This document shows, piece by piece, positions 31,601 to 40,760 of a stretch of 64,000 bases of DNA. A program made the translations under genes and the position numbers. The number at the start of each line of letters is the position of its first letter. Within the stretch, counting starts at the first letter, position 1. A model generated the notes under the pieces. That model saw nothing but the letters and a program-made list of their open reading frames with translations. It ran no database searches and was not told where the DNA came from. The stretch lies in contig CAZNZL010000001.1 in the NCBI GenBank assembly GCA_964577565.1, forward strand, positions 142,566 to 206,565, given 5' to 3'. This stretch comes from an uncultured Candidatus Saccharibacteria bacterium. GTDB taxonomy: Bacteria; Patescibacteriota; Saccharimonadia; Saccharimonadales; JAGQNJ01.

Positions 31601-31808
31601 AGGGTATCCTTTACTTGTTATAGTTGTATCGACCAAATTTTAAATGTTCTTTTACCAAAAAAGCCTTTGGCATTCCAAAGACTTTTATACGATTTTTGCT
31701 TAAACGGCTTCTCGTACCTCGGTAGCATTCTTAATTCGCTCGTGAGCGAACGCTACTGTCTTTGGTAAATAACATCTTAATTTTAACAAATTATTATTGT
31801 TTCGTCAA
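31601..31808 (-). promoter_or_regulatory. rplJ promoter plus L10-leader-like 5' UTR with an internal hairpin and U-run
   Basis: Minus strand: TTGACG (31808-31803), 17 nt, TAAAAT (31785-31780). Leader hairpins TTCGCTcacgAGCGAA and CTTTGGaatgCCAAAG followed by T6 (31657-31681). Not checked with a covariance model. Confidence 0.45.
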
Positions 31809-33971: not shown

Positions 33972-36290
33972 TTAAGACTTGTCTAGTTGTTTTAATTTAA
34001 ATTGTGTATATCGTTCAGCTGCCAACCGTGTTAATTCAGGGTCCTCACCCTGATTTACAAACTTCATGGCTTCAGCAATTAATGGATGTACTTCTGCAAG
34101 CTTTTCGTGCATTTGTTGTACGAGTTTTCGATAGCCAGGGTGGCCTTGTGGTGAGGTTCGTAGCTCATGAAGGTGAAATGCTTCGCGGGCATTATACGTT
34201 ACCTTCCAGCGCATTTTATGACCAAGTAGTGTTGCATATTGGGCTTCAAGTTCGTACCCAGCTGCCTGAAGTTCGCTGTAGAGCTGAAGGCTACTATCGA
34301 AACACTTTTCAAACAAATCAACCAACCCGGCCTCTTCAATTAATTTTGGAATATCATAGCCGTAACGCGGGGTTAAATACTGCCATTCAAGGTCATCAAC
34401 GATGCGGTGGCGCTGTAGGTCTCTAAAGATACCGTAGTCACATATTAAATCCCAGCTATAATGAGCTTTTTCTAAGGCTCTGCCTGGCTTGTGCCGGCGA
34501 TTTAACCGCTCACCCATATAACTTCTAAAGATTTCTACGCGCTTATCGTATGGCAAATTAAGGACGCTACGATTTAAGTCTTCCAGTGGTAGGTTGGTGT
34601 GTTCATATAACATATCTGCAACCAAATCGAGCTCGTTGCGTGGCCAATAGCTCGTTAGGGTGACGGCTTCGTTTGCTTCGCTATAATGGCTTGGTACTAC
34701 TTCTTGGGCGTGTTGCTTCATGGCGGCGCGGGTGTTTGACCAATAGGCAATAGTAGCACCGCCTCGATCAGCTTTATCGGCTCGTTCTAAGAAAGTTGAG
34801 ACTACTTTTCGACTTTCATCAAGCAGGGCCTGACCTACGTCACGTGCTTCTGGCAAATCATCGCTAAGTAAGTGCATAATTAAGCTTTCTAAGGCCTGGC
34901 CAGAAGCATAAATGCCAACCGTTGACGTCGTAGCAACGGGCAGAACCGGACGTACGGCATCACATGCCTGAGCTCGGGTAGCTCCCTTCCACGCTAGATC
35001 TTGCTCTTTTTTTGGAACGTTAGAGTTTTTTCGTACGTGATCAGTAAGTTTGTGAACCATTTCAGAATATAAATCAAAAATTTTGTCCATGCTGTCGATG
35101 TATTTTTGTTTTACATCATCATTAAAGTGTTTTGGCGTTAAGTAGCGGTAATTGCCGTTTTTGTCTTTTTGGTCAAAATATATGTAGCGAGTTGACTGTT
35201 CTAAATATGAAGCCAATCGGCCCCACTCAAGCTTTTTGGTTAGCAAATTCGAGGCGTTTTCTACCACAACATGTTGCCCTGCAAGCTGCTGTACGGAGTC
35301 ATCTCCGTAGGCAGTAATAACGCGGCGCAGCAAATCCTTGTCTTTATCTGCTTTATTGGCAAACTCATCTAAGATTGTTATACGCATATCATCGCCGCGA
35401 CGGCTTAAACGCGCCATAGCCGCAGCAATTGTGACCGTGCTTAGCTCGTCGGTAAACGCATAAACATTGTCAGTTGTATTTGTAACGGCTTTTTGAAGAT
35501 ATGCCTTGCCATTATCGGTGATTTCATAGCCGTTTTCAGTCTTACGCAGCAATTCAGTTTCGTCTTGTTGCTTATTGCTGGTTTTTAGCATAGGTTTGAC
35601 TTTCTCCCATATTAAGTTATGAATTTCATCAATACTGAGTAGTTTGCCGTCACGTATACTGTCAATACGCTGAAAGTCTTTTGGAAACAACTCGCATAAA
35701 TCTTTATATACTTCAAGTGAGCGCTCAATGTGTGCTTCATCAGCTTCATGAATGTCTTTTTTGACATGCGTGCTTGAGTTCTCTTTTGCAGCTAGCCGTT
35801 CTTTGATGACTTCAAGTGGTGTATATAAAACAAAGCTTAAGTTTGGACGGGGTATGCCGAGCATTTCAAACTCTAAATTATCGAGCCAAATAAAATACCC
35901 CCGCCGTTCTTCTGGGTTGTTAAATTTTGTACCTTGGTGCGCCATGTTTGAGCCCACATACCGGTCGCACAACACAATTTTACCGGCCCTAAGAGCGTCT
36001 TTGATTTCTTTGGCGGCCTGGTAACGGTCTAAGGCATAAAACATCGAGCTCTTGTACGGCCCTACCTCGTTAGCCTCGCCGTACTTACCTGCGAGGTATT
36101 CGCGAACAAAGTAGCTTGATTCTTCATCGTAACGAGGAAAATGAATATTCAGGATATCATAGCCCTCGTCGGTTAGCTTTTTTTGCAGCGCTTCATACTG
36201 CGTAGATTTACCTGACCCGTCAGTACCCTCAATGACGATGAACAAACCAGTTTCTTCCCCACCCTTGTTAAGTGTGGAAGAATTATTCAT
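33972..36290 (-). CDS. fusion protein: N-terminal thymidylate kinase plus a roughly 540-aa tandem ThyX-like (flavin-dependent thymidylate synthase) module
   Basis: Tmk part: IVIEGTDGSGKSTQ P-loop and CDRYVGSNMAHQ. C-terminal part: LASYLEQSTRYIYF (S..S.RY block) in the first repeat, FRDLQRHRIVD (RHR) in the second, and FHLHELRTSPQGHPGYR. ATG 36290 overlaps the dcd stop by 8 nt. Confidence 0.75.
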   Translation of the reverse strand: MNNSSTLNKGGEETGLFIVIEGTDGSGKSTQYEALQKKLTDEGYDILNIHFPRYDEESSYFVREYLAGKYGEANEVGPYKSSMFYALDRYQAAKEIKDALRAGKIVLCDRYVGSNMAHQGTKFNNPEERRGYFIWLDNLEFEMLGIPRPNLSFVLYTPLEVIKERLAAKENSSTHVKKDIHEADEAHIERSLEVYKDLCELFPKDFQRIDSIRDGKLLSIDEIHNLIWEKVKPMLKTSNKQQDETELLRKTENGYEITDNGKAYLQKAVTNTTDNVYAFTDELSTVTIAAAMARLSRRGDDMRITILDEFANKADKDKDLLRRVITAYGDDSVQQLAGQHVVVENASNLLTKKLEWGRLASYLEQSTRYIYFDQKDKNGNYRYLTPKHFNDDVKQKYIDSMDKIFDLYSEMVHKLTDHVRKNSNVPKKEQDLAWKGATRAQACDAVRPVLPVATTSTVGIYASGQALESLIMHLLSDDLPEARDVGQALLDESRKVVSTFLERADKADRGGATIAYWSNTRAAMKQHAQEVVPSHYSEANEAVTLTSYWPRNELDLVADMLYEHTNLPLEDLNRSVLNLPYDKRVEIFRSYMGERLNRRHKPGRALEKAHYSWDLICDYGIFRDLQRHRIVDDLEWQYLTPRYGYDIPKLIEEAGLVDLFEKCFDSSLQLYSELQAAGYELEAQYATLLGHKMRWKVTYNAREAFHLHELRTSPQGHPGYRKLVQQMHEKLAEVHPLIAEAMKFVNQGEDPELTRLAAERYTQFKLKQLDKS

Positions 36291-36987
36291 ATTTAATACC
36301 TTTAATGGCCTCCGGCTTGATTCTCGTGTCTTTGTACGCACGTGGCAGCATTTGATCCGGGCTCCAGGCTGAAACAATACTTTCAATATTGTTACTAGTG
36401 TTTGACTGATATTTGCCGCTCAATTTTTTATACTCTTGGTCAACGGGCCCTGTTTCGTAAAAGACCATTTGTGCAATACGTTCGCCTACCGGTAAGACGA
36501 CACTTTCATGTTGGTTCATGTTGTAGATCTCCATGGTCCACCTATTAACATAACCCGGGTCGCCCCAACCGGCATCAAGGCAAACTGCTACACCGTTTCT
36601 GCCCCATGTGCTTCGAGCCTGCATAGTGCTTGTTCCTGGTGCTTTGATACCAATAAATTCATGAGTATGAGCCAATATGCGCTCGTGCGGCCGCAACACA
36701 ATAATAGGATGGTCTGGTGGAATATTTTTAAATAGAGCGCGCCCGTGAGCTTTTGCCCACTGTTTGTGAATCTCTGCTTTGAACGGGCCGCTAAAATAAT
36801 TATCTACTGACTGTTTATCAAAAGGGTTATAAAACCCACCTTGGCTCGGACGCTCGGTGCGGTAATACCAATAGCCCAACGTAACATCTACGCTGCTGCC
36901 AGCAATGTTTTTCTCGGTATAGGGGTGAAAAACTATATGCCCGTCTTTAACAGCTTTTTTTATTTGTCGGTTACTATATACTCCCAT
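36283..36987 (-). CDS. dcd: dCTP deaminase / dUTPase-superfamily protein
   Basis: SNRQIKKAVKDGHIVFHPY, GSSVDVTLG, ERIAQMVFYE. ATG 36987 with GAGGGAG upstream (the alternative ATG 37014 is possible). Confidence 0.82.
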   Translation of the reverse strand: MGVYSNRQIKKAVKDGHIVFHPYTEKNIAGSSVDVTLGYWYYRTERPSQGGFYNPFDKQSVDNYFSGPFKAEIHKQWAKAHGRALFKNIPPDHPIIVLRPHERILAHTHEFIGIKAPGTSTMQARSTWGRNGVAVCLDAGWGDPGYVNRWTMEIYNMNQHESVVLPVGERIAQMVFYETGPVDQEYKKLSGKYQSNTSNNIESIVSAWSPDQMLPRAYKDTRIKPEAIKGIKYE

Positions 36988-37111
36988 GACTCCCTCGTTT
37001 TCTCTATTGTACACAAGAATGACACCGTAGGGCTAGGGGTAACGAGCATATTACAACATAAACGAACCGCCTGCTTGAAACAGGCGGTCAACCGTTACGA
37101 AAAGTCGATTT

Positions 37112-38026
37112 TTAAACGTCGCTATTATTTACGTGAATACTAGGGCCCATAGTCGTGGTTACAAAAACAGACTGGATGTAGCTGCCTTTTAGGCTGGCCG
37201 GCTTGGCGGTCTTGATGGCGTTTATGATGGCATTGGCGTTTTGCTCTAGATCTTCAGGTTTAAAGCTTGCTTTACCAATGCTTAAATGGATTATGCCGGT
37301 GCTATCTACGCGGTATTCAACCTTGCCTGCCTTGGCTTCTTTAACGGCTGTTGCTACGTCTTTTGTAACCGTGCCGCTCTTTGGGTTTGGCATAAGGCCT
37401 TTAGGGCCAAGTAACCGAGCGTATTTGCCGAGTTTAGCCATCATTTGTGGCGTTGATATTAAAACGTCAAAGTCAAGTTGTTCTTTGTCGAGTTTTTGTA
37501 GAAAGTCATCTGAACCGGTAATATCGGCACCTGCTGCCTGAGCCTTTTTAGCATCGTCAACATCTGCGAATACAGCTACACGTACCGTTCTGCCGCTACC
37601 CGCTGGCAAGGTAACGGTTCCGCGTATATTTTGGTCTGCTTGGCGTGGATCGACACCGAGCTTAATATGAAGCTCTACGCTTGCATCAAACTTGGCAGGA
37701 TTAGTCTTGCCTGCTAGTTCAAGGGCTTCAGCCAGGCTGTATTCTTTGGTTTTATCAATCAACTTAGCTGCTTCTCGAAATTTCTTACCTTTACGTTCTA
37801 AGATAGAACGAGCCGGTTTAACAGGTTGTTTTGGCTTAGCTTTATCAGTCTCTTCTGTAGCGTTTTCTTTGCGTGCTTCTTTGGCTTGCTTTTCTTCAGC
37901 TTCTTTAAGAGCTTTTGTACTGCGCTTTCCGGCTTTTGCGGTAGTAGCAGCTTTTGGCGTTTCTTTTACCTCAGCAACCTGTGCTGCTGTTTCTTCTTTA
38001 GTTTGCTCTTTCTTGGCTTCTGCCAT
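37112..38026 (-). CDS. rplA: ribosomal protein L1 with a roughly 75-aa Lys/Glu/Ala-rich N-terminal extension
   Basis: Core [13 protein letters not shown]...[24 protein letters not shown]...; SD AAAGGAG before ATG 38026. Confidence 0.92.
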
Positions 38027-38153
38027 AACTTCTCCTTTCGTGGTGCAAACATCTGTCAACGTGGCAGACTCCCACAGTTTAATGTAATTATTATAACATC
38101 GAATTTAAAACTATTCTAGTGTTTCAGTTGTTCGCAACGTTTTATGTGCTTTT

Positions 38154-38441
38154 TTAACTTGCATCACCCATGTCGCGATATTTTTGAAGGTACTCTCGCA
38201 GTAGATGCGCAGCTTGATAACTTTCACCTATTGTTGCCTGTTCATGCCAGCGAACATATGTCTCTATGCTTGGAACCTTAATTTCATGTGCAGGGACATC
38301 AGGTCTTCCAACCGACGGCACTGAGCGTATAAGCGCATAATACAATTGACGGTCTTGTTCGGTAAAAAGAAGATCAGGTCGAGCTTTTTCAAGCTCGGTC
38401 ATAGGTTGAATTTTACCATCTAATTGACCGGCGTACTGCAC
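38154..38441 (-). CDS. hypothetical 95-aa protein, third gene of the cassette inserted between rplK and rplA
   Basis: GTG start overlaps the upstream TAG by 1 nt (TAGTG). Helical; no motif recognised. Confidence 0.5.
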   Translation of the reverse strand: MQYAGQLDGKIQPMTELEKARPDLLFTEQDRQLYYALIRSVPSVGRPDVPAHEIKVPSIETYVRWHEQATIGESYQAAHLLREYLQKYRDMGDAS

Positions 38442-38659
38442 TATTGATCAAGCTCTTGCGGACTTCCCGTTTTTTCTTTTATAAAGCCAGTAAGTTGCGC
38501 AACTTGATCATCCGTGAGGATCAGTGAACCAATTTCATATCGTCGTGCTATATCTAAGAGTGCGCGTTTCTCCTCTCCTTCGGCCCATGCCCTAATTGCT
38601 GGTGAATCTGGACTAGCATCGGGTGCTCGACTATAACGTACAATTCCATCGCTTGCCAT
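38441..38659 (-). CDS. hypothetical 72-aa protein, second gene of the cassette
   Basis: ATG lies 9 nt after the upstream stop, with AGGAGA in the spacer. Confidence 0.5.
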   Translation of the reverse strand: MASDGIVRYSRAPDASPDSPAIRAWAEGEEKRALLDIARRYEIGSLILTDDQVAQLTGFIKEKTGSPQELDQ

Positions 38660-38668
38660 AATGATCTC

Positions 38669-39007
38669 CTATCTTTCTTCGGTTGATAATTGGTTTAGGC
38701 CTGGAGCTGGCTGGTCGAGGCCAACAACAGACTGCAATAGCTCAGGGCTAACATCTTTACGCGGAACGATTTCAAACATCTCGCCGCCGCTTCTACCTAA
38801 ACCTGCTGGGCGTACAAAAAAGGCTTGGGGCTCACCAGATCCACCCGTATCAAGCGTCAAGGCCTCTTGTGGATGGGTTACATCTACGATGGTTACCTGT
38901 CTAATCGCACGTAAAAATCCTGTATCTACCCAACCAAATGCACCAGGAGCAAAAGAGCGAACTTTATCAACTAACTCTACTGCTGAGCGTTCTGGGCTTC
39001 GCGACAT
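38669..39007 (-). CDS. hypothetical 112-aa protein, first gene of the cassette
   Basis: ATG lies 4 nt after the rplK TAA; a GAAGG SD lies inside the rplK 3' end. Confidence 0.55.
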   Translation of the reverse strand: MSRSPERSAVELVDKVRSFAPGAFGWVDTGFLRAIRQVTIVDVTHPQEALTLDTGGSGEPQAFFVRPAGLGRSGGEMFEIVPRKDVSPELLQSVVGLDQPAPGLNQLSTEER

Positions 39008-39011
39008 AGTT

Positions 39012-39443
39012 TTAACCTTCTACTTCTACTCCCATTGAGCGAGCGGTTCCGGCAACCATTTTCTTAACGGCCTCGACATCATCGGTGTTCATGTCATTAG
39101 CTTTCGTTTGAGCGATTTCAGTTAACTGTGCATCATTCAGTTTTTTTGCAACCTTTTCACTGTTGGGCTTACCAGAGCCTTTATCGATGCCGAGTTTGGC
39201 ACGAATCATGTCGTCAGTTGGTTGGCCAACAACCCTAAAATCCATACTACGATCATCATAGATGGTAATATGAGCAGTTACCGTAACATTGCCCATGTCA
39301 CGAGTTTGTTCGTTGAATGGATTAACAAAATCCATCATGTTAACACCGTACTGACCAAGTGTGCTACCTACAGGAGGGCCTGCACTGGCTTTGCCAGCTG
39401 GTATCTTCATCTTTAGATTAGCTTTAACTTCTTTTTGTGCCAT
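39012..39443 (-). CDS. rplK: ribosomal protein L11
   Basis: KMKIPAGKASAGPPVGSTLGQYGVNMMDF; SD AAAGGAA before ATG 39443. Confidence 0.95.
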   Translation of the reverse strand: MAQKEVKANLKMKIPAGKASAGPPVGSTLGQYGVNMMDFVNPFNEQTRDMGNVTVTAHITIYDDRSMDFRVVGQPTDDMIRAKLGIDKGSGKPNSEKVAKKLNDAQLTEIAQTKANDMNTDDVEAVKKMVAGTARSMGVEVEG

Positions 39444-39503
39444 CGTTATTTCCTTTGCATATTGTATCGCTGAAGCATGCGATGTAATGTGCGTAACTTT
39501 ACT

Positions 39504-39532
39504 ATTATAACAAAAACTACCCCTGTTGTCCA
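39504..39532 (-). promoter_or_regulatory. near-consensus promoter for rplK
   Basis: Minus strand: TGGACA (39532-39527), 17 nt, TATAAT (39509-39504). The -35 lies inside the last codons of the inserted ORF 39517-39774. Confidence 0.5.
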
Positions 39533-39774
39533 GTGTGATGATGTCTTGGGTTATCTGGATTTCTATCATCATCTAAAGGGAGGAATTTACCCACCGTGCG
39601 CATTTTGTCTGATATATCCCACATGCGTGGGTCTCCTGACCTAACTGCATCCATAAATTGGGCATACAATTCTTGCCAATAGGCTTCGGTAAAGGCTCCA
39701 TCGGTTGGGTCTCTCAAAAAATTTGCTTCTGCTATTTCGGCAAAAGTTGGTAATGAGCTTTCAGGCGTAGACAT
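39517..39774 (-). CDS. hypothetical acidic 85-aa protein inserted between nusG and rplK
   Basis: ATG lies 5 nt after the nusG TAG; no motif recognised. Confidence 0.55.
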   Translation of the reverse strand: MSTPESSLPTFAEIAEANFLRDPTDGAFTEAYWQELYAQFMDAVRSGDPRMWDISDKMRTVGKFLPLDDDRNPDNPRHHHTGQQG

Positions 39775-39779
39775 GATGA

Positions 39780-40322
39780 CTACACTCTCTTAACTTGTAG
39801 AGAGTCAAGTTCAACCGGTGTTTCGCGGCCAAACATGTTAACAAGTACTTTAAGCTTGCCTTTTTGAGCGTCAATCTCGTTAATAGAGCCGTCAAAACCC
39901 TTAAACGGACCATCAACAATGTTAACAACCTCGCCAATGCGGTAGTCAATCTTATGCTTGGGTTCGGCGCGGCCCATACGCTTCATGATTTTTTCAATCT
40001 CAGCCTCGCTTACCGGGCTTGGTTCAGTACCACTACCAACAAAGCCGGTTACGCTTGGCGTGTTTCGTACAATGTACCATGCATCTTCGGTTAGCTTCAT
40101 TTGTACCAACACGTATCCTTGAAAAATGCGTTTTTCTACTACTTTACGTTTGCCGTTTTTAACCTCGATCATTTTTTCTTTTGGTACTAATACCTGAAAA
40201 ATTTTGTCTTTCATGTCTAAACTGTCGGCACGCTGCCGAATGCTTTCAGCAACTTTTTCTTCATAACCGCTATAAGTATGAATCGCATACCATTGCTTTG
40301 ATGAATCATAACGTTTATTCAT
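39780..40322 (-). CDS. nusG: transcription termination/antitermination factor NusG
   Basis: KQWYAIHTYSGYEEKV NGN domain; KOW region GEVVNIVDGPFKGFDGSI. Confidence 0.95.
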   Translation of the reverse strand: MNKRYDSSKQWYAIHTYSGYEEKVAESIRQRADSLDMKDKIFQVLVPKEKMIEVKNGKRKVVEKRIFQGYVLVQMKLTEDAWYIVRNTPSVTGFVGSGTEPSPVSEAEIEKIMKRMGRAEPKHKIDYRIGEVVNIVDGPFKGFDGSINEIDAQKGKLKVLVNMFGRETPVELDSLQVKRV

Positions 40323-40391: not shown

Positions 40392-40760
40392 TTATAGTAA
40401 TACCTCTTTAAATAATTTATCGAGCCCGTAGTCAACAACTGCAATTAATAACCCAAAACCAATCGCAAATGCAAAAACGGCTATAGTAAGCTGGGCTGTT
40501 TCGCGCCTACCTGGCCATGTTACCTTACGAAGCTCTTGCCAGCTTGCTTGTAAATACCCAAGAAAAAGAATTTTAGATATGATCTTGCCAATAAACCGAA
40601 ACGGCTTTGCTTTGAAGGGACGGGCGGCAAACTTAGCTGGCTTTATGGCTTTTTGGCCAACTACTGACGCAGAACGACGCATGCGCCCTAAGCGCTTGTT
40701 GGTCTTAGCTGACTCAGTTTTAGCTTTACCTTTTGTTGGTAATTTTCGGGTACGGGCCAC
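40392..40760 (-). CDS. secE: preprotein translocase subunit SecE with a roughly 60-aa basic N-terminal extension
   Basis: C-terminal SWQELRKVTWPGRRETAQLTIAVFAFAIGFGLLIAVVD. Confidence 0.85.
   Translation of the reverse strand: MARTRKLPTKGKAKTESAKTNKRLGRMRRSASVVGQKAIKPAKFAARPFKAKPFRFIGKIISKILFLGYLQASWQELRKVTWPGRRETAQLTIAVFAFAIGFGLLIAVVDYGLDKLFKEVLL

What the first reader, a model, noticed from the sequence alone, without database searches (positions are those of the whole stretch)
39504..39774. Acidic 85-aa ORF coupled to nusG, with the rplK promoter built into its 3' end
The ORF 39517-39774 starts 5 nt after the nusG stop codon.

Its last codons (ACT GGA CAA CAG GGG TAG) contain the -35 element TGGACA of a near-consensus promoter. 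That promoter reads TGGACA, 17 nt, TATAAT and sits at the right distance to drive rplK.

So the insert is integrated into both the upstream translation unit and the downstream transcription signal. This argues for long residence rather than a recent accident.
Basis: partly seen in the sequence, partly recalled or inferred. Interest (0 to 1): 0.6.

Follow-up and report, generated by a model that had tools for sequence, protein, structure and literature searches.

The report
Small gene abutting conserved rplK promoter
A real but function-unknown 85-residue protein gene sits between nusG and rplK in a Saccharibacteria genome; the promoter "inside" its end is an older element shared by dozens of relatives that carry unrelated genes, or none, at that spot.

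Summary
On the minus strand an 85-codon ORF (39774..39517) starts 5 nt after the nusG stop. Its last codons cover the -35 hexamer of TGGACA-17-TATAAT (39532..39504), the best promoter match in 18 kb.

The ORF is a real gene. It has about 10 relatives among billions of proteins, and every one looked up lies between nusG and rplK. It is under purifying selection and has a confident three-helix model. It matches no known family or fold.

The promoter, plus a fixed leader start (GTTACGCAC) and a covarying GCUUCA hairpin, is conserved upstream of rplK in 57 of 76 related Saccharibacteria loci. In three loci nusG's own TAG is the start of the -35. In 35 loci mostly unrelated ORFs run into the element, giving shared tails in several frames (GQQG*, DNRGxx*, QQGSDxVx*).

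So the overlap is imposed by an older promoter and is not an adaptation of the insert. Some family members stop before it. The nusG-rplK gap is a high-turnover slot: 0 to 2.7 kb, 79 ORFs in 63 sequence clusters. ORF85 is one comparatively old occupant. Its function and the transcription start remain untested.

The parts
39780..40322 (-). nusG (180 aa), the upstream gene of the translation unit
   Evidence: Pfam NusG E 5e-30. Relatives are 88-94% identical in 80 Saccharibacteria loci.
39775..39779 (-). 5-nt junction TCATC between the nusG stop TAG and the ORF85 ATG; likely termination-reinitiation coupling
   Evidence: Read directly from the sequence. Family members start 2-27 nt after nusG. 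Many unrelated slot ORFs start 1-5 nt after it.
39517..39774 (-). ORF85: acidic 85-aa protein with a three-helix core and a conserved C-terminal motif GKFLPxDDxRNPDNP; the tail RHHHTGQQG is poorly modelled
   Evidence: 9 family members in 5.8 billion proteins and 11 representatives in 1.84 billion, one of them spurious. pN is well below pS. AF2 gives pLDDT 88 and pTM 0.73, dropping to 53 over the last residues. No Pfam, NCBIfam, PHROG or PADLOC family and no PDB or BFVD fold match.
39527..39532 (-). -35 hexamer TGGACA, inside codons 80-82 of ORF85
   Evidence: The hexamer is T[AG]GACA in 57 non-redundant related loci.
39519..39526 (-). Conserved promoter-spacer block ACAGGGGT; its T plus the next AG form the ORF85 stop codon
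   Evidence: GACAACAGGGGT (up to 1 mismatch) occurs 48 times in the nusG-rplK interval and 4 times elsewhere in 661 kb of loci. It is the only exact copy in the window.
39504..39512 (-). Extended -10: TGT TATAAT
   Evidence: TAnnnT is kept at 17-18 nt from the -35 in the related loci.
39489..39497 (-). GTTACGCAC, the conserved start of the rplK leader; predicted transcription start at G 39497
   Evidence: It lies 6-7 nt after the -10 in all but one of the 59 matching loci, and is nearly invariant. The start site itself is inferred and not mapped.
39457..39492 (-). Leader hairpin: inner stem 39483..39479 / 39470..39466, loop AUGCUUCA
   Evidence: MFE fold -9.6 kcal/mol. 41 of 59 leaders carry GCUUC flanked by complementary arms, with 36 distinct arm sequences and a median of 6 bp against 3.1 in shuffles. 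All 4 predicted pairs show compensatory changes. No Rfam family matches.
39451..39455 (-). Shine-Dalgarno AAGGA of rplK
   Evidence: Read from the sequence. AAGGAG-like in relatives.
39012..39443 (-). rplK (L11, 143 aa), the gene the promoter would drive
   Evidence: Pfam Ribosomal_L11_N and Ribosomal_L11.
38154..39007 (-). Second variable slot: three chain-coupled small acidic ORFs (112, 72 and 95 aa) between rplK and rplA
   Evidence: No family in any library. The rplK-rplA gap is variable in relatives: 59 ORFs in 45 clusters.

Best explanation
The window comes from a Saccharibacteria (Saccharimonadales, CPR) genome and holds the cluster secE-nusG-[ORF85]-rplK-[3 small ORFs]-rplA.

Shown:
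- ORF85 is a real, vertically retained gene for a small acidic three-helix protein. Every family member looked up lies in this one position.
- Immediately downstream lies a much older and far more widespread module: a sigma-70-type promoter (T[AG]GACA, spacer ACAGGGGT..., TAnnnT), a fixed leader start GTTACGCAC, a covarying hairpin presenting GCUUCA, a Shine-Dalgarno site, then rplK.
- The space between the nusG stop codon and this promoter is a high-turnover slot. Related species hold nothing there, one ORF, or several mostly unrelated small ORFs.
- Whatever ORF sits there runs flush against both borders and often stops at a stop codon supplied by the promoter spacer. That is why ORF85 ends ...GQQG*.

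Inferred:
- ORF85 is transcribed with secE-nusG. No conserved terminator intervenes.
- It is translated by reinitiation 5 nt after the nusG stop.
- rplK receives both read-through transcripts and transcripts from its own promoter starting near 39497. The leader hairpin is probably an autoregulatory r-protein binding site.

The protein's function is not established. My best guess is a non-essential, lineage-specific cytoplasmic accessory protein made at roughly NusG-like levels. The flush junctions reflect genome compaction and the lack of its own expression signals, and not a functional fusion with the promoter.
For: Anatomy.

Gene reality:
- Family of 9 proteins and 11 representatives, one of them spurious.
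- Synteny nusG|ORF|rplK at every place looked up.
- pN 0.16-0.46 against saturated pS 0.70-0.91.
- AF2 pLDDT 88.
- GC and GC3 match the neighbouring genes.

Promoter older than the ORF:
- The composite motif is in 59 of 78 loci, 57 of 76 non-redundant.
- The nusG TAG forms the first three bases of TAGACA in L018, L031 and L034.
- The motif is specific to this interval, 48 occurrences against 4.
- Mostly unrelated ORFs end in GQQG*, DNRGxx* or QQGSDxVx*.
- Family members P0004, P0005 and P0006 end before the promoter.
- P0010 ends in the alternative frame...DNRGSL.

Slot turnover:
- The distance from nusG stop to the -35 runs from -3 to 2587 nt, median 311.
- 79 non-overlapping ORFs of at least 60 aa fall into 63 BLASTP clusters, 54 of them singletons.
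- The ORF85 profile finds only its own family among the slot ORFs.
- L021 and L023 have near-identical promoter and leader but differ by a precise 127-aa ORF indel.
- The family is patchy on a NusG+L11+L1 tree.
- Another occupant (L013) has a single relative in 5.8 billion proteins, also in the slot.

The sigma-70 consensus applies in this genome: TTGACG-17-TAAAAT sits just upstream of the Rfam L10 leader.

Leader structure.
Against: - No transcription start, transcript or protein data exist, so promoter activity, coupling and expression are inferred from sequence only.
- The strongly conserved spacer ACAGGGGT is atypical for a plain sigma-70 promoter and is unexplained. It could be a regulator site or have another role.
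- The comparison set is the 80 loci with the most similar NusG, not a full phylogenetic sample. The tree is a crude NJ tree.
- Many singleton slot ORFs cannot be tested for selection, so some may not be genes.
- The functional guess for ORF85 rests on the absence of hits and on position, which is weak.
Confidence: 0.75

Rival explanations
1. The insert has become co-adapted with its surroundings: the rplK promoter evolved within, or was reshaped by, the ORF's 3' end, so the overlap is itself evidence of long residence and functional integration.
For: The overlap is real. It is kept in the closest relatives L001, L003 and L044. The gene is old enough for synonymous saturation.
Against: The promoter exists unchanged without any ORF and with mostly unrelated ORFs. 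Identical tails arise in three reading frames. Family members P0004, P0005 and P0006 stop upstream of the promoter. The overlapping tail is variable and poorly modelled, with pLDDT 53.
Confidence: 0.08
2. ORF85 works with the machinery it is encoded beside. It would be a small acidic partner or regulator of NusG, RNA polymerase or the L11/L1 region of the ribosome, kept next to nusG for stoichiometric co-expression.
For: The position is strictly fixed after nusG in all family members looked up. The start is tightly coupled. The fold is confident and carries an invariant surface-type motif PxDDxRNPD. Sigma-70 family genes occupy the same slot in six relatives, which hints at transcription-related cargo.
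Against: Most relatives with 88-94% identical NusG lack it and carry unrelated proteins, including predicted membrane proteins, or nothing. NusG and L11 therefore do not need it. It resembles no known NusG, RNAP or ribosome binder.
Confidence: 0.2
3. The conserved DNA block is not, or not only, a promoter. It would be an RNA or DNA element within a read-through transcript from nusG, such as a processing or regulator-binding site or a recombination site. The TTGACA/TATAAT resemblance would be secondary.
For: The spacer ACAGGGGT is as conserved as the hexamers, which plain promoters do not need. No terminator separates nusG from rplK. The element is unique to this locus.
Against: The variation pattern is that of a promoter: TAnnnT is invariant while inner -10 positions are free, the spacer is 17-18 nt, and a fixed 6-7 nt leads to a conserved leader start. 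The candidate ACAG/CTGT pairing shows changes on one side with none on the other (by inspection). In L006 a second copy precedes a separate ORF that has its own Shine-Dalgarno site. The motif occurs once per slot, so it does not flank cassettes.
Confidence: 0.12
4. ORF85 is a chance ORF in a long nusG-rplK spacer and is not a gene.
For: It is short, has no known domain and no name in any source.
Against: Purifying selection; conserved length and motifs over 39-69% identity; confident AF2 model. Same-strand ORFs fill a median 93% of the slot against 44% for the opposite strand.
Confidence: 0.03

Closest known systems
Escherichia coli secE-nusG / rplKA(JL) arrangement, with the internal L11 promoter downstream of nusG and L1 autoregulation through the rplK leader (textbook knowledge; L1-interacting RNA reviewed in PMC3616713)
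   Same: The gene order is secE-nusG-rplK-rplA. A dedicated promoter lies between nusG and rplK on top of read-through. A structured leader precedes rplK.
   Different: Extra protein genes sit between nusG and the promoter, and between rplK and rplA, which breaks the usual rplK-rplA coupling. The promoter abuts or overlaps the upstream coding sequence. The leader hairpin (GCUUCA loop) is not recognisably the published L1 motif (stem with a G-A bulge) and matches no Rfam family.
Chromosomal hotspots of gene turnover between conserved core genes (general concept from comparative genomics; from my own knowledge)
   Same: Two highly conserved flanks (NusG 88-94% identical; the promoter/leader/rplK) enclose content that differs between related species, including a presence/absence difference between close relatives.
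   Different: The cargo is one to a few tiny ORFs without integrases, transposases, tRNA or repeats. All are on the operon strand and flush with the flanks. The location is inside one of the most conserved operons known. No family is shared between the two adjacent slots. GC is native. This points to in-place turnover more than to mobile elements.
Integron gene cassettes and phage 'morons' (promoter-less or self-contained extra genes inserted between conserved genes)
   Same: Small unrelated ORFs are plugged in at a fixed point and are presumably expressed from a shared upstream promoter.
   Different: No attC-like repeat flanks the ORFs: the conserved motif occurs once per slot, with L006 the only duplicate. 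No integrase was seen in the gene lists of the fetched loci. Unlike morons, there are no own promoters or terminators.
Overlap of a promoter with the 3' end of the upstream gene in compact genomes
   Same: The -35 lies inside the last codons of the upstream ORF.
   Different: Nothing unusual in kind. The instructive detail here is that one conserved promoter gives mostly unrelated proteins the same C-terminal residues in different frames.

Membership tests
Sigma-70-type bacterial promoter | -35 and -10 hexamers close to TTGACA / TATAAT with a 16-18 nt spacer | tested here: met
   TGGACA-17-TATAAT with TG, 11/12, the best of 42 sites in 18 kb.
Sigma-70-type bacterial promoter | Conservation of the hexamers and spacing in relatives, with a promoter-like substitution pattern | tested here: met
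   T[AG]GACA, 17-18 nt, TAnnnT in 57 of 76 non-redundant loci, followed 6-7 nt later by a conserved leader start.
Sigma-70-type bacterial promoter | Transcripts start 6-8 nt downstream of the -10 | not testable with these tools
   No transcriptome or 5'-end data. Predicted start at G 39497.
Translationally coupled gene pair (nusG-ORF85) | Stop and start codons overlap or lie within a few nucleotides on the same strand | tested here: met
   5 nt in the window; 2-27 nt in family members.
Translationally coupled gene pair (nusG-ORF85) | Downstream translation depends on upstream translation | not testable with these tools
   Needs reporter or ribosome-profiling experiments. An AGAGAG stretch 12-17 nt upstream could be a weak Shine-Dalgarno site, so independent initiation is not excluded.
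Genuine protein-coding gene | Purifying selection and conserved synteny in relatives | tested here: met
   pN 0.16-0.46 against pS 0.70-0.91. Same position in all contigs examined.
Any curated protein family (Pfam, NCBIfam, PHROGs, PADLOC) or solved/predicted fold (PDB, BFVD) | Significant profile or structural match | tested here: not met
L1-interacting autoregulatory leader RNA (PMC3616713) | 6-12 bp stem with an internal bulge holding a G-A pair followed by an unpaired A, directly preceding rplK or rplA | tested here: inconclusive
   A covarying hairpin does precede rplK. Its conserved feature is a GCUUCA loop, however, and I could not recognise the G-A/A bulge. No covariance model of the L1 RNA was available (no Rfam hit).
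Integron-like cassette array | Recombination sites flanking each cassette, and a nearby integrase | tested here: not met
   The conserved motif occurs once per slot, twice only in L006. No integrase appears among the called genes of the fetched loci.

The most novel reading that the evidence does not exclude
The stretch between the nusG stop codon and the fixed rplK promoter (and likewise between rplK and rplA) may act in Saccharimonadales as a constitutively transcribed and translated 'landing pad'. There, small lineage-specific proteins would be born, swapped or lost at high rate. This could happen by homologous recombination between the near-invariant flanks in naturally competent cells, or by de novo emergence, because anything placed after the nusG stop is reinitiated. 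The occupants, ORF85 among them, could be fast-evolving host-interaction or conflict factors of these epibiotic bacteria and not housekeeping proteins.
Probability: 0.2. Interest if true: 0.7.

Novelty: new variant of a known kind. Interest (0 to 1): 0.4.

Why it matters
The ORF/promoter overlap is, on its own, ordinary genome compaction. The comparative picture behind it is more useful, for four reasons.

1. It defines a deeply conserved rplK promoter and leader module for Saccharibacteria, a group with almost no mapped regulatory signals. The module includes a covarying leader hairpin that is absent from Rfam.

2. It shows that one of the most conserved operons in bacteria tolerates rapid turnover of small orphan genes in this clade, at two precise points.

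3. It gives a clean natural example of non-homologous proteins sharing C-terminal residues because they read through the same regulatory DNA. This is a caveat for motif-based inference on small proteins.

4. The slot and its promoter could serve as a neutral, well-expressed insertion site for genetic work in Patescibacteria.

Tried and rejected
- **Exhaustive profile search of 1.84 billion representatives.** It found only about 10 small proteins of the same family, plus one spurious eukaryotic forkhead-repeat protein, P0016.
- **Are the other slot ORFs diverged ORF85 homologues?** The profile finds only its own family, next best E 0.48. Rejected at the sensitivity available.
- **Recent horizontal acquisition.** GC and GC3 match the neighbours. 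Every family member looked up was in this slot. Rejected.
- **The shared GQQG tail as a protein-level signal (degron or sorting).** Rejected, because the same DNA is read in several frames and is conserved where it is non-coding.
- **The conserved motif as a cassette recombination site flanking each ORF.** It occurs once per slot, except in L006. Not supported.
- **The terminator-like hairpin inside ORF85 (39746..39726).** Its T-run is lost in L001. Chance.
- **The spacer as an RNA stem (ACAG/CTGT).** One-sided changes without compensation (by inspection). Rejected.
- **Rfam for the leader.** Only noise, best E 3.1.
- **Literature search for a described hypervariable nusG-rplK region in Saccharibacteria.** Nothing relevant found.
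- **Source names for the proteins.** None given.

Full report
**1. What is in the sequence**

All relevant genes are on the minus strand. In the order they are read:

| Feature | Coordinates |
|---|---|
| secE | 40760..40392 |
| nusG | 40322..39780 |
| 85-codon ORF | 39774..39517 |
| rplK | 39443..39012 |
| three small ORFs (112, 72, 95 aa) | 39007..38154 |
| rplA | probable start ATG 38026, end 37112 |
| dcd | 37014..36283 |
| tmk-thyX fusion | ends 33972 |
| Rfam L10 leader | 31783..31648 |

Pfam confirms SecE, NusG, L11 and L1.

- The nusG stop TAG (39782..39780) is followed by TCATC and then the ORF's ATG.
- The ORF ends ACT GGA CAA CAG GGG TAG.
- TGGACA (39532..39527), 17 nt, and TATAAT (39509..39504) preceded by TG form the best sigma-70-like site in 18 kb, at 11/12.

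**2. The ORF is a real gene**

- A search of 5.8 billion proteins finds only itself and two relatives. A profile search raises this to nine (alignment A4).
- An exhaustive HMMER scan of 1.84 billion representatives finds 11, one of them a spurious eukaryotic repeat protein.
- All members are 48-100 aa. They share F-x-x-DPTD near the N-terminus and GKFLPxDDxRNPDNP near the C-terminus.
- Every member whose contig I fetched sits between nusG and rplK, starting 2-27 nt after the nusG stop.
- Codon-aligned comparisons give pS 0.70-0.91 (saturated) against pN 0.16-0.46. This indicates purifying selection.
- AlphaFold2 with the nine-sequence alignment gives pLDDT 88 and pTM 0.73. It shows helices at 11-21, 26-46 and 50-62, an ordered conserved C-terminal segment, and low confidence (53) for the last residues.
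- GC and GC3 equal those of the neighbours.
- Nothing in Pfam, NCBIfam, PHROGs, PADLOC, PDB sequences, or the PDB and BFVD fold libraries resembles it beyond generic helical bundles.

**3. The organism and the comparison set**

A scan of one genome per species with the NusG protein returned 80 loci. Nearly all are labelled Candidatus Saccharibacteria or Saccharimonadales, with NusG 88-94% identical. In the same loci L11 is 68-85% and L1 52-69% identical. The set therefore spans considerable divergence.

**4. The promoter belongs to rplK and not to the ORF**

Aligning the 160 nt upstream of rplK in all loci shows a composite element:

- T[AG]GACA;
- a 17-18 nt spacer that usually begins ACAGGGGT;
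- TAnnnT;
- 6-7 nt in all but one locus;
- then GTTACGCAC.

It is present in 59 of 78 loci, which is 57 of 76 after removing two duplicates. The core GACAACAGGGGT (up to 1 mismatch) occurs 48 times in the nusG-rplK interval and 4 times in the rest of 661 kb. It occurs once, exactly, in the window.

The substitution pattern is what a promoter and its transcription start would show. TA and the final T of the -10 are invariant, inner positions are free, and the spacing is fixed. As a positive control, TTGACG-17-TAAAAT lies immediately upstream of the Rfam-identified L10 leader in the same window.

The distance from the nusG stop to the -35 ranges from -3 to 2587 nt, median 311. In L018, L031 and L034 the nusG stop codon TAG is itself the first three bases of TAGACA.

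**5. Shared tails in mostly unrelated proteins**

In 35 loci a same-strand ORF of at least 40 aa has its stop codon inside or just after the promoter.

- ORFs with no detectable similarity to each other end ...GQQG* (L011, L014, L021, L022, L032, L042, L063, L069, as well as the ORF85 family).
- Others end ...DNRGxx* (L007, L016, L027, L036, L037, ...) or ...QQGSDxVx* (L008, L012, L065).
- These are the same DNA read in different frames.
- Within the ORF85 family, P0004/L070, P0005 and P0006 stop before the promoter. P0010 ends ...DNRGSL.
- The tail of ORF85 after RNPDNP is the variable, low-confidence part of the protein.

The 'promoter built into the 3' end' is therefore a by-product. An ORF lying flush against a fixed promoter borrows its last codons and its stop from it. 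The 1-5 nt junction with nusG is likewise common to many unrelated slot ORFs.

**6. The slot turns over quickly**

- The nusG-rplK gap ranges from about 0 to 2.7 kb.
- In slots of at least 150 nt, the longest same-strand ORF fills a median 93% of the slot, against 44% for the opposite strand.
- There are 79 non-overlapping ORFs of at least 60 aa in 54 loci. They fall into 63 BLASTP clusters, 54 of them singletons. The largest are a sigma-70 family (6) and the ORF85 family (5).
- The ORF85 profile detects none of the others.
- On a crude NusG+L11+L1 tree the ORF85 family appears in three separated places. Close neighbours carry other ORFs or none.
- L021 and L023 have near-identical promoter and leader. 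They differ by the exact presence or absence of a 127-aa ORF between the nusG stop and the -35.
- Another occupant (L013, 101 aa) has a single relative in 5.8 billion proteins, again in the slot.
- The rplK-rplA gap behaves the same way: 59 ORFs in 45 clusters, with no family shared between the two slots.
- Slot ORFs have native GC.
- No integrase was seen in the gene lists of the fetched loci, and no flanking repeats were found. The motif is single-copy per slot, except in L006, where a second promoter copy precedes an extra ORF with its own Shine-Dalgarno site.

**7. The leader**

Downstream of the predicted start (G 39497) the leader folds into a hairpin: inner stem 39483..39479 / 39470..39466, loop AUGCUUCA.

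- Across loci, 41 of 59 leaders carry GCUUC flanked by complementary arms of 36 different sequences. The median stem is 6 bp, against 3.1 for shuffled flanks.
- RNAalifold finds compensatory changes in all four predicted pairs.
- No Rfam family matches.
- The published L1-interacting RNA is a short stem with a G-A bulge that precedes rplK or rplA, depending on phylum (PMC3616713). I could not show that this hairpin is that motif.

**8. How it most likely works**

Shown: the anatomy, gene reality, promoter and leader conservation, and slot turnover.

Inferred:
- ORF85 is transcribed with secE-nusG and translated by reinitiation after nusG.
- rplK is transcribed both by read-through and from its own promoter.
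- The leader hairpin is an autoregulatory site.
- ORF85 is a dispensable, lineage-specific cytoplasmic protein.

A role with NusG, RNAP or the ribosome is possible (about 0.2). It is weakened because most relatives with nearly identical NusG lack the protein.

**9. Verdict**

The ORF/promoter overlap is an ordinary arrangement. The wider pattern is a modestly novel variant of a gene-turnover hotspot: a fixed promoter and leader module, with two high-turnover small-ORF slots inside the nusG-rplKA cluster of Saccharibacteria. Interest 0.4.

Noticed in passing
window 38154-39007 (-): Three further small acidic ORFs (112, 72 and 95 aa) are chained between rplK and rplA. Their junctions are 4 nt, 9 nt, and an overlapping TAGTG. 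This breaks the usual rplK-rplA coupling. None matches any family library. The 95-aa one (N-terminus M-x-YAGQ) belongs to the largest family of the rplK-rplA slot, 10 of 59 ORFs.
   Followed up: partly
window 39457-39497 (-); leaders of L001-L083: The rplK leader has a conserved structure: GUUACGCAC at the predicted 5' end, and a hairpin presenting a GCUUCA loop. The stems covary (36 different arm sequences). It is absent from Rfam. It is a candidate new ribosomal-protein leader; the binding protein is unknown.
   Followed up: partly
window 39519-39526 (-): The promoter spacer block ACAGGGGT is as conserved as the -35 and -10 hexamers and is specific to this promoter. The reason is unexplained (regulator site?).
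   Followed up: partly
L015, L016, L038, L057, L071, L075 (nusG-rplK gap): In six related genomes the slot holds a 303-423 aa sigma-70-family gene. In L016 it reads into the same promoter (tail ...LDNRGKL).
   Followed up: no
L006 4811-4840 and 5289-5318: There are two copies of the promoter motif. The first drives, through its own AAGGAG, an extra 114-aa ORF. The second is followed by the normal leader and rplK. This looks like a promoter duplication that came with a gene gain.
   Followed up: partly
L021 4544-4915 versus L023 4544-4550: These close relatives have near-identical promoter and leader. They differ by the exact presence or absence of a 127-aa, probably membrane-spanning, ORF between the nusG stop and the -35.
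   Followed up: yes
window 33972-37014 (-): dcd and a fused thymidylate kinase-ThyX gene (about 772-804 aa, Pfam Thymidylate_kin + Thy1 in the L003 orthologue) lie between rplA and the L10 leader/rplJ. The classical rplKAJL cluster is therefore split by nucleotide-metabolism genes.
   Followed up: no
window 37112-38059 (-): L1 carries an N-terminal extension of roughly 90 aa rich in Lys, Glu and Ala. The likely true start is ATG 38026, behind AAAGGAGAA, and not the TTG at 38059. SecE also has a long basic N-terminal extension.
   Followed up: no
L044, L057, L063 (about 230 nt between promoter and rplK): These three loci share a different, longer conserved leader (…CCATTTCG…CGTAT.TCT.ATACG…GAGAAATGTCC…) between the same promoter and rplK. 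No Rfam match at the gathering threshold.
   Followed up: partly
L045, L046, L060, L076, L077, L084: In some relatives rplK follows nusG by 0-46 nt with no recognisable promoter or leader. rplK is presumably expressed only by read-through there.
   Followed up: no
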